Shown one piece after another: positions 59,509-59,705 of a DNA stretch of 64,000 nt. A program made the position numbers and the translations under genes. Location: contig OZ024740.1 of assembly GCA_964016885.1 (NCBI GenBank), positions 314,278,001-314,342,000 on the forward strand, read 5' to 3'. The notes beneath the pieces were generated by a model that saw only the letters and a program-made list of their open reading frames with translations, made no database searches and was not told where the DNA came from. This DNA is from Eledone cirrhosa. Lineage: Eukaryota. Every line of letters starts with the position of its first letter. Positions within the stretch are counted from its first letter, which is position 1.

Positions 59509-59705
59509 ATAGGAACGAGTAGGACCCCGACGGCTGAGCTCAAGCCGTTTCGACGGCTAATTTTTAGTCCAGAATTAGCTGTCGAAACGGCTTGAGCTCA
59601 GCCGTCGGGGTCCTACTCGTTCCTATTACCCACTCTACTACCCTAAGTATTGAGTACTTTGATGCGTTATGGTCCACCTGGTTCCTTACCACATTTCCTT
59701 CGTTA
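59509..59705 (+). mobile_element. Penelope-like terminal element with a 118-bp fold-back containing the 3' half of a hammerhead-like motif
   Basis: Palindrome 59509-59626; GAAA-CGGCT(TGAGCTC)AGCCG-TC; tail ctaagtattgagtac. Confidence 0.6.

What the first reader, a model, noticed from the sequence alone, without database searches (positions are those of the whole stretch)
59509..59705. Fold-back hairpin centred on a hammerhead stem II, with the CUGANGA half apparently overwritten
Seen: the right arm reads stem II (GACGGCTAATTTT / AGAATTAGCTGTC, whose two non-Watson-Crick pairs are both G.U on +), then GAAA, a full stem III A-CGGCT/AGCCG-T with a palindromic GAGCTC loop, a GUC triplet (59604-59606) and GGGG. 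Where CUGANGA should lie, a perfect reverse complement of the 3' half is found instead. Inference: an imperfect RNA-type inner stem with perfect outer arms suggests the cDNA snapped back on the ribozyme's own stem II and self-primed second-strand synthesis. That would mechanistically link ribozyme structure to palindrome formation.
Basis: partly seen in the sequence, partly recalled or inferred. Interest (0 to 1): 0.75.

Follow-up and report, generated by a model that had tools for sequence, protein, structure and literature searches.

The report
Penelope stub marking RNA start
This hairpin is one of more than 13,000 back-to-back stubs of a ribozyme-carrying Penelope-type jumping gene, and its fold point likely marks where the element's RNA begins, where two separately primed DNA copies would run off and be joined, rather than a snap-back on the ribozyme stem.

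Summary
It is a truncated head-to-head insertion of a Hydra-clade Penelope-like retroelement (3.54-kb unit, 719-aa RT/GIY-YIG ORF) into (TA)n. At least 13,114 such stubs exist. Long copies carry a type I hammerhead motif with a U3-A8 or C3.A8 core, not CUGANGA. Their stem II 5' strand differs from the hairpin's left arm and is never found at a fold. The two G.T pairs are a likely CpG change and junction sequence; across 66 pairs G.T and A.C mismatches are balanced. Stubs pair one tailed with one tail-less arm (69 of 74), either arm can be longer, about 83% of arms stop within 14 nt of loop II, non-native G outnumbers A at the stop, and template jumps leave from it. Best reading: both target strands prime cDNA at two sites near the RNA 5' end, run off a probably capped start inside stem II/loop II, and are end-joined. 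A second set of 492 palindromes folds at the predicted ribozyme cut. The layout is known for Penelope elements; the scan reported this reading earlier on other DNA of this genome.

The parts
59367..59511 (.). (TA)n target microsatellite, left side
   Evidence: nearly all family copies sit in (TA)n
59509..59562 (-). Tail-less arm (B): inverted copy from start site B (+45 from the G of GTCGAAAC) back to about -8
   Evidence: fixed outer end ...GTTCCTAT sharing TAT with the target in other copies
59563..59706 (+). Tailed arm (A): copy from start site A (+125) back to about -18 in loop II
59562..59566 (+). Position of the family's inferred RNA 5' end(s): A at -15 (59566, in TTAGTC) and A at -19 (in TCATTT of long copies; replaced here by the junction); inferred transcription start
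   Evidence: initiator likeness is recalled, not from a call
59572..59583 (+). 3' strand of hammerhead stem II (T59580 is a likely CpG change)
   Evidence: fold of long copies
59584..59606 (+). GAAA, stem III with self-complementary loop, GUC; predicted cut after 59606
   Evidence: family palindromes that fold at this cut
59607..59611 (+). 3' strand of stem I (pairs with ACCCC of long copies)
59627..59706 (+). 80-nt tail present on one arm only (between start sites B and A)
   Evidence: tail concept from PMC11167929, PMC8557442
59704..59724 (.). (TA)n target microsatellite, right side
62652..62844 (-). Second stub of a sister subfamily, same layout (tailed arm on -), with G before AGTCC at the junction
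   Evidence: 86% identity

Best explanation
This is a head-to-head stub insertion of a Hydra-clade Penelope-like retroelement in a (TA)n repeat, likely made when both cut target strands primed reverse transcription at two fixed sites near the element RNA's 5' end and the two short cDNAs ran off that end, probably a capped transcription start inside the hammerhead's stem II/loop II, and were then end-joined. Shown by sequence: parent element, family size, one tailed plus one tail-less arm, sharp stop zone at -9 to -19, extra G at the stop, template jumps leaving from the stop, a second fold class at the predicted ribozyme cut. From literature: two internal RT start sites bounding the tail and priming from both target strands (Anolis PLE in vitro, PMC11167929); internal promoter in the pLTR (PMC2377424). 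Inferred: that the stop is a physical RNA end (about 0.85), that it is a capped start (about 0.65), that joining uses microhomology and untemplated bases. The RNA that starts there lacks the 5' catalytic half, so the ribozyme plays no part in making this stub; long copies come from longer templates (read-through of tandem arrays or circles, not told apart).
For: Parent: natural tandem arrays, unit 3,543 bp, 99-100% alike, intact 719-aa ORF starting at +216; RT + GIY-YIG look-alikes score 0.96-0.98. End pairing: 69 of 74 short pairs are tail + no tail, 1 tail + tail, 0 neither, 4 unclear; 41 of 41 in loci not chosen by centre length. Symmetry: among 69 pairs the tailed arm is longer by >2 nt in 22, the tail-less arm in 19, 28 within 2 nt; 9 of 74 centres have no loop. 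Stop zone: 36,540 arms reach -9, 6,354 reach -22, 5,847 reach the core at -60; 14 of 95 sampled arms pass loop II; 126 hits have a short palindrome with an arm past -22. Extra G: where both arms carry a non-native purine at -16, G in 91 of 98 arm ends (49 places, hand tally); G 81, A 19 of 100 listed arms, 36 vs 9 after removing those explained by the partner arm or poly-A (hand tally); in long copies G 7 vs A 8 at -16, control -17 G 5 vs A 8. Template jumps: 9 chimeric inserts leave at -12 to -19 and resume at +187 to +943, five of them on the tail-less strand (L205, L214, L216, L217, L222), so that strand was templated by RNA on its own. Second fold class: 492 palindromes (control 43) centred near the GUC; in 35 of 49 listed places one arm ends exactly at the cut and the other within 2 nt, 23 with both exactly there, fillers mostly A/T, extra C in 4 (hand tally).
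Against: No direct RNA evidence. Junctions with T at -16 on both arms (2,484) outnumber the purine class (482); T is native there and would also result from A-tailing, so the capped share cannot be measured and two starts (-15, -19) are needed. A few arms reach -20 or the native AAAATTTT palindrome. The stop also coincides with the apex of the extended stem II in the predicted fold. No unit-length copy starting at the stop was seen among the 50 loci fetched where the tail runs on into the 5' UTR, so the capped RNA seems not to yield full-length copies, which is unexplained. Only 2 rare variants are shared by both arms against 71 in one arm, so one RNA versus two cannot be told. No DPE match at +28 by eye. 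Samples come mostly from the first part of contig C1; exact-match counts use patterns of different length.
Confidence: 0.72

Rival explanations
1. The stop is not a transcription start but a reverse-transcriptase block or nuclease cut at the apex of the long stem II; twin priming and end-joining otherwise as above. This would keep a structural link to the ribozyme.
For: The -19 limit is the first base after the apical loop in the predicted fold of L174. T/T junctions outnumber G-bearing ones.
Against: G over A at -16 in stubs only, while ends at the uncapped ribozyme cut get mostly A/T; arms that pass -22 show almost no further loss through the rest of the hairpin; a second limit at -15 lies inside the helix.
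Confidence: 0.15
2. One cDNA primed at the tail end runs off, folds back on its own 3' end by a few bases and self-primes the second arm, which stops at site B (close to the self-priming idea in PMC3846280).
For: 34 of 74 junctions allow microhomology; arms share subfamily markers in 63 of 74 pairs; a few junctions fit the small native hairpin of loop II.
Against: The tail-less arm holds the loop in 19 of 69 pairs and 9 of 74 centres have no loop; five inserts carry pieces from +216 to +342 on the tail-less strand, which the tailed cDNA does not contain; no reason for a fixed stop at B. Later centre deletions could blur the first point.
Confidence: 0.09
3. One reading: the cDNA snapped back on the ribozyme's own stem II, leaving G.U pairs and overwriting CUGANGA.
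For: Centres do lie next to stem II; both non-Watson-Crick pairs in this copy are G.T on +.
Against: 0 true products in two genome searches against 13,114 stubs; native 5' strand and loop II absent from all 74 centres; no G.T bias.
Confidence: 0.02
4. The hairpin is a self-standing palindromic element (MITE or non-autonomous family) that moves as a unit.
For: High copy number, narrow size, (TA)n target.
Against: 63 different centres in 74 pairs; each subfamily of the long element has its own stubs; arms unequal (tail on one side); inverted pairs run from tens of bases to several kb.
Confidence: 0.02

Closest known systems
Inverted 5'-truncated pLTR plus one-sided tail of EN+ Penelope-like elements (PMC8557442 passages; PMC3846280 passages; PMC2377424 passages and Discussion)
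   Same: Head-to-head arms, tail on one arm, partial tandems, palindromic junction, microsatellite target.
   Different: Here the ORF-less stub is the commonest product, the tail is 80 nt (30-40 in print), and the junctions fit two sense-templated cDNAs rather than the self-priming on an antisense template proposed in PMC3846280.
Hydra clade of C-terminal EN+ PLEs (PMC8557442 section 11; supplement rows)
   Same: RWR for RWK, DKT, CxCX5C linker, CxxC and CxH near the EN end, (TA)n target, hammerhead motif; by-eye likeness to the Hydra-1_Obim protein.
   Different: A separate family: the motifs SDKTGN and LRWRT are not in the supplement; unit 3.54 kb (Hydra families mostly <3 kb); core U3-A8 or C3.A8 with long stems II and III.
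Poseidon of Anolis carolinensis, in vitro (PMC11167929, parts 1-2 of 4)
   Same: Two internal RT start sites bound the tail; both target strands are cut and extended; AT-rich target; uncut RNA is the main template.
   Different: There no RNA reads began or ended at the ribozyme cut and run-off palindromes were not described in the parts read; here 492 palindromes fold near the predicted cut.
Type I hammerheads of PLE pLTRs, including the U3-A8 variant (PMC4209133, parts 1-2 of 4)
   Same: Type I layout, G10.1-C11.1, self-complementary loop III, U3-A8 core.
   Different: Full 6-bp stem III and a roughly 55-nt interrupted stem II; the window copy holds only the 3' half and cannot cut by itself (inferred).
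L1 twin priming (recalled; search listing only)
   Same: Both target ends prime on element RNA and give an inversion.
   Different: In L1 the two cDNAs cover adjacent parts of the RNA; here they overlap and both start at fixed internal sites.

Membership tests
EN+ Penelope-like element | Single ORF with RT and C-terminal GIY-YIG endonuclease | tested here: met
   719-aa natural ORF with YRDD and VIY...YIG; Atlas neighbours carry RVT_1 and GIY-YIG; Pfam itself gave no hit on three pieces
EN+ Penelope-like element | Partial tandems (pLTR), inverted 5'-truncated copy, one-sided tail | tested here: met
Hydra clade | RWK-like motif, DKT, CxCX5C linker, CxxC and CxH, no CCHH, (TA)n target | tested here: met
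   LRWR, SDKT, CNCPDRSIC, CNLC, CKH read from the ORF against section 11; absence of CCHH judged by eye
Hydra clade | Phylogenetic placement inside the clade | not tested
   no tree built; reference proteins seen only in a supplement
Neptune clade | CX2-5CxxC linker and DKG | tested here: not met
   linker is CxCX5C and motif is DKT
Type I hammerhead ribozyme (parent element) | Core CUGANGA or the U3-A8 covariant, GAAA, UH | tested here: met
   20 of 31 cores UUGA(G/U)AA, 9 CUGAGAA (C3.A8 mismatch), 2 other, 0 CUGANGA; GAAA and GUC fixed
Type I hammerhead ribozyme (parent element) | Three helices around the core | tested here: inconclusive
   unconstrained lowest-energy fold is the hammerhead in 6 of 14 U3-A8 and 0 of 10 C3.A8 sequences; L037 z = -0.59; no Rfam match
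Type I hammerhead ribozyme (parent element) | Self-cleavage after GUC | not testable with these tools
   indirect only: palindromes folding at the predicted cut
Type I hammerhead ribozyme (window copy) | Complete core in cis | tested here: not met
   5' core and stem I/II 5' strands absent
MITE / TIR element | Fixed consensus palindrome that moves as a unit | tested here: not met
   63 centres in 74 pairs; unequal arms; parent is an RT element
Non-LTR retrozyme | Short tandem units each with a complete type I hammerhead (bioRxiv 10.64898/2026.07.22.740005, part 1 of 5) | tested here: not met
   inverted, half-ribozyme arms; tandem units seen are the 3.54-kb coding unit

The most novel reading that the evidence does not exclude
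The stubs are a fossil map of the 5' ends of Penelope RNA in the germ line: a capped start placed inside the ribozyme's stem II (so the main transcript cannot self-cut at its 5' end) and a second end at the ribozyme cut, used more by subfamilies with the paired U3-A8 core. They would show that inverted pLTRs are built by two-site priming on sense RNA with run-off and template jumping, and that a PLE hammerhead cuts in vivo.
Probability: 0.55. Interest if true: 0.68.

Novelty: new member of a known kind. Interest (0 to 1): 0.46.

Why it matters
How Penelope-like elements form their inverted pLTR-plus-tail insertions, which RNA strand they copy and whether their hammerheads cut in cells are open questions (PMC8557442, PMC3846280, PMC11167929). 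A family with over 13,000 stubs and recent intact arrays gives base-level, testable predictions for all three. The single window copy is itself an ordinary dead insertion.

Tried and rejected
Rfam scans of the window and of an intact copy: no match. Pfam on three ORF pieces: no match. Sequencing runs: no RNA holder listed; no reads laid. Neptune assignment, my first reading: dropped after motif check. Retrovirus-like strong-stop transfer from the capped end to make long copies: no excess of G at -16 in long copies, not supported. Stem II snap-back. A splice acceptor at TTTAG or TCCAG as the boundary: no common upstream exon in 74 centres. One versus two RNA templates: undecided. Tail/no-tail classes could not be counted genome-wide, only in 74 sampled pairs. 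Literature searches listed no paper on run-off or cap signatures at PLE inverted junctions; the library lacks most subscription papers, and the paper on dimeric PLE hammerheads was not held. PMC13282606 (passages) mentions no palindromes or ribozymes. The bioRxiv supplement was not seen and could list related hammerheads.

Full report
Positions written as -n or +n count from the G of GTCGAAAC (window 59581). Tallies called hand tallies were made by eye from the first 100 listed rows of a search, all on contig C1.

Observation. The window holds an inverted repeat with arms 59509-59564 and 59571-59626, 54 Watson-Crick pairs and two G.T pairs, followed on the right by an 80-nt unpaired tail to 59706, all between (TA)n runs. 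Rfam finds nothing in the window. A second stub of a sister subfamily lies at 62652-62844.

Family and parent. The window lies in a 3.0-Gb genome; a 133-nt query gave 1,012 candidates, 40 scored, at 98-100% identity. Exact patterns give 28,439 hits for the stem III region and 13,114 short inverted centres against 1 for the control; centres longer than the pattern allows are not counted. Long copies belong to a 3,543-bp unit found in tandem arrays 99-100% alike, with an intact 719-aa ORF from +216. Pfam missed it, but Atlas neighbours carry RT and GIY-YIG families, and its motifs (LRWR, SDKT, CxCX5C, CxxC, CxH) are those given for the Hydra clade. I first took it for Neptune; earlier scan notes pointed to Hydra and I checked the motifs. 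No tree was built.

The ribozyme. Long copies read ACCCC, then the core, then G-N-T-CGGCTA, about 30 nt of loop II with a further small helix, GAATTAGCCGTC, GAAA, stem III, GTC, GGGGT. Of 31 cores from loci not chosen by the core pattern none is CTGANGA; 20 are U3-A8, 9 C3.A8, 2 other. U3-A8 is a described PLE variant (PMC4209133). The hammerhead is the lowest-energy fold in 6 of 14 U3-A8 and 0 of 10 C3.A8 sequences; one copy folds no better than shuffles, and Rfam does not match. So the motif is good and the activity untested.

A snap-back on stem II must leave the native 5' strand and loop II at the centre. Two searches gave 0 and 3 hits, the three being unrelated joins. In other copies the left arm is the plain reverse complement of the right. 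T59580 is C in 27 of 29 nearest copies and sits in a CpG; T59563 belongs to the T run at the junction. In 66 of the 74 pairs (8 dropped for more than 6 differences in 48 nt) mismatches were G.T 6 vs A.C 8 in the inner stem and 27 vs 29 outside.

Two independently primed arms. Of 74 short pairs from the first 23.4 Mb of C1, 69 join a tailed arm to a tail-less arm, 1 has two tails, none has two tail-less arms, 4 are unclear; the 41 from loci chosen without regard to centre length are all tail + no tail. Both outer ends share TAT with the target. The tail-less arm is the longer in 19 of 69 pairs and 9 of 74 centres have no loop; a fold-back from the tail-less arm could not supply the tail. Five inserts carry pieces from +216 to +342 on the tail-less strand. 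This matches the Anolis element in vitro, where both target strands are cut and extended and two internal start sites bound the tail (PMC11167929).

A sharp stop. 36,540 arms reach -9, 6,354 reach -22 and 5,847 reach -60; patterns differ in length, so the 83% loss is approximate, but 14 of 95 sampled arms passing loop II agrees. No arm of the 74 pairs passes -19 (part of this sample was limited by pattern length); 126 hits genome-wide have a short palindrome with an arm past -22, mostly joined at a native AAAATTTT. Nine chimeric inserts leave at -12 to -19 and resume at +187 to +943, as expected if the enzyme reaches a physical end and jumps (recalled from R2). Non-native G at -16 outnumbers A 91 to 7 where both arms carry a purine (49 places, one nested duplicate dropped) and 81 to 19 in single arms, 36 to 9 after removing cases explained by the partner arm or poly-A (its pattern leaves out junctions with A at -28). 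Long copies show no such excess (G 7, A 8; control G 5, A 8). An extra G is the known trace of copying a cap (recalled). Against: T/T junctions are five times more common (2,484), T being native or A-tailing; about 12 of 50 of these show an extra G further up, near -19/-20. Both A(-15) and A(-19) lie in initiator-like words (recalled consensus), and D. virilis Penelope has an internal pLTR promoter (PMC2377424). The -19 limit is also the apex of the predicted hairpin, which keeps a structural rival alive. The window copy, with its tailed arm at -18 and tail-less arm at -8, fits either start.

A second fold class at the ribozyme cut. 492 palindromes (control 43) centre near the GUC; in 35 of 49 listed places one arm ends exactly at +26 and the other within 2 nt, in 23 both do; fillers are mostly A/T, with an extra C in 4. 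The subfamily whose core is U3-A8 in 30 of 31 long copies supplies 39 of 47 assignable cut-site palindromes but 26 of 45 start-site ones; the window's subfamily is C3.A8 in 32 of 48 (Fisher p = 0.011). This is suggestive only: the long-copy sample was partly chosen by core pattern and subfamilies may differ in read-through RNA.

Unexplained. No unit-length copy begins at the stop among the 50 loci fetched for this; long copies cross it, so they need read-through or circular RNA (circle proposal in PMC4209133). One or two RNA molecules per insertion is undecided. There is no RNA data.

Comparison and verdict. The inverted pLTR with a one-sided tail is the standard PLE insertion (PMC8557442; PMC3846280, which proposed self-priming on an antisense template). 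I found no paper on run-off or cap traces at these junctions in nine searches. Other agents of this scan reached the same reading on other DNA of this genome; that is not independent support, and my odds were noted before looking. The element is a new family of a known clade with a known layout; its value is as a precise read-out of an unresolved mechanism. Interest 0.46.

Noticed in passing
window 42832-42946: Another palindrome with a canonical minimal hammerhead (CTGATGA, short stem II, GAAA) on each arm; fold centre just 5' of the core; probably a different Penelope family.
   Followed up: partly
window 8108-8278: 172-nt near-perfect palindrome whose arms end in a motif like the tail of this family (GTTGAGCACTC vs ATTGAGTACT); no hammerhead core found by pattern.
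   Followed up: partly
window 59724-60161: AT-rich palindrome with about 218-nt arms directly beside the finding, in the same (TA)n; the same sequence flanks the copy in L008.
   Followed up: no
window 10978-11596: 625-nt palindrome, 96% complementary, overlapping a 328-codon open frame at its left end.
   Followed up: no
window 1079-1181: Old, about 75% identical relative of the tailed arm on the - strand.
   Followed up: no
window 9450-9545: Short element with CAGGGTGTCCCCAAAAATG inverted ends, MITE-like.
   Followed up: no
window 58763-58965, 61413-61775: Three copies of a SINE-like repeat, 72-85% alike.
   Followed up: no
L209:4171-7501: A 55-bp piece of the element's ORF (about +1740 to +1796) amplified into a perfect tandem array of about 60 copies at the 5' end of a multi-unit insertion.
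   Followed up: no
L208, L210, L211: Tandem arrays of four or more full 3.53-3.54-kb units at 99-100% identity, a sign of recent activity.
   Followed up: partly
L207:314-974: Three successive pieces each ending at -18, two starting at +238: repeated jumps between RNA ends in one insertion.
   Followed up: partly
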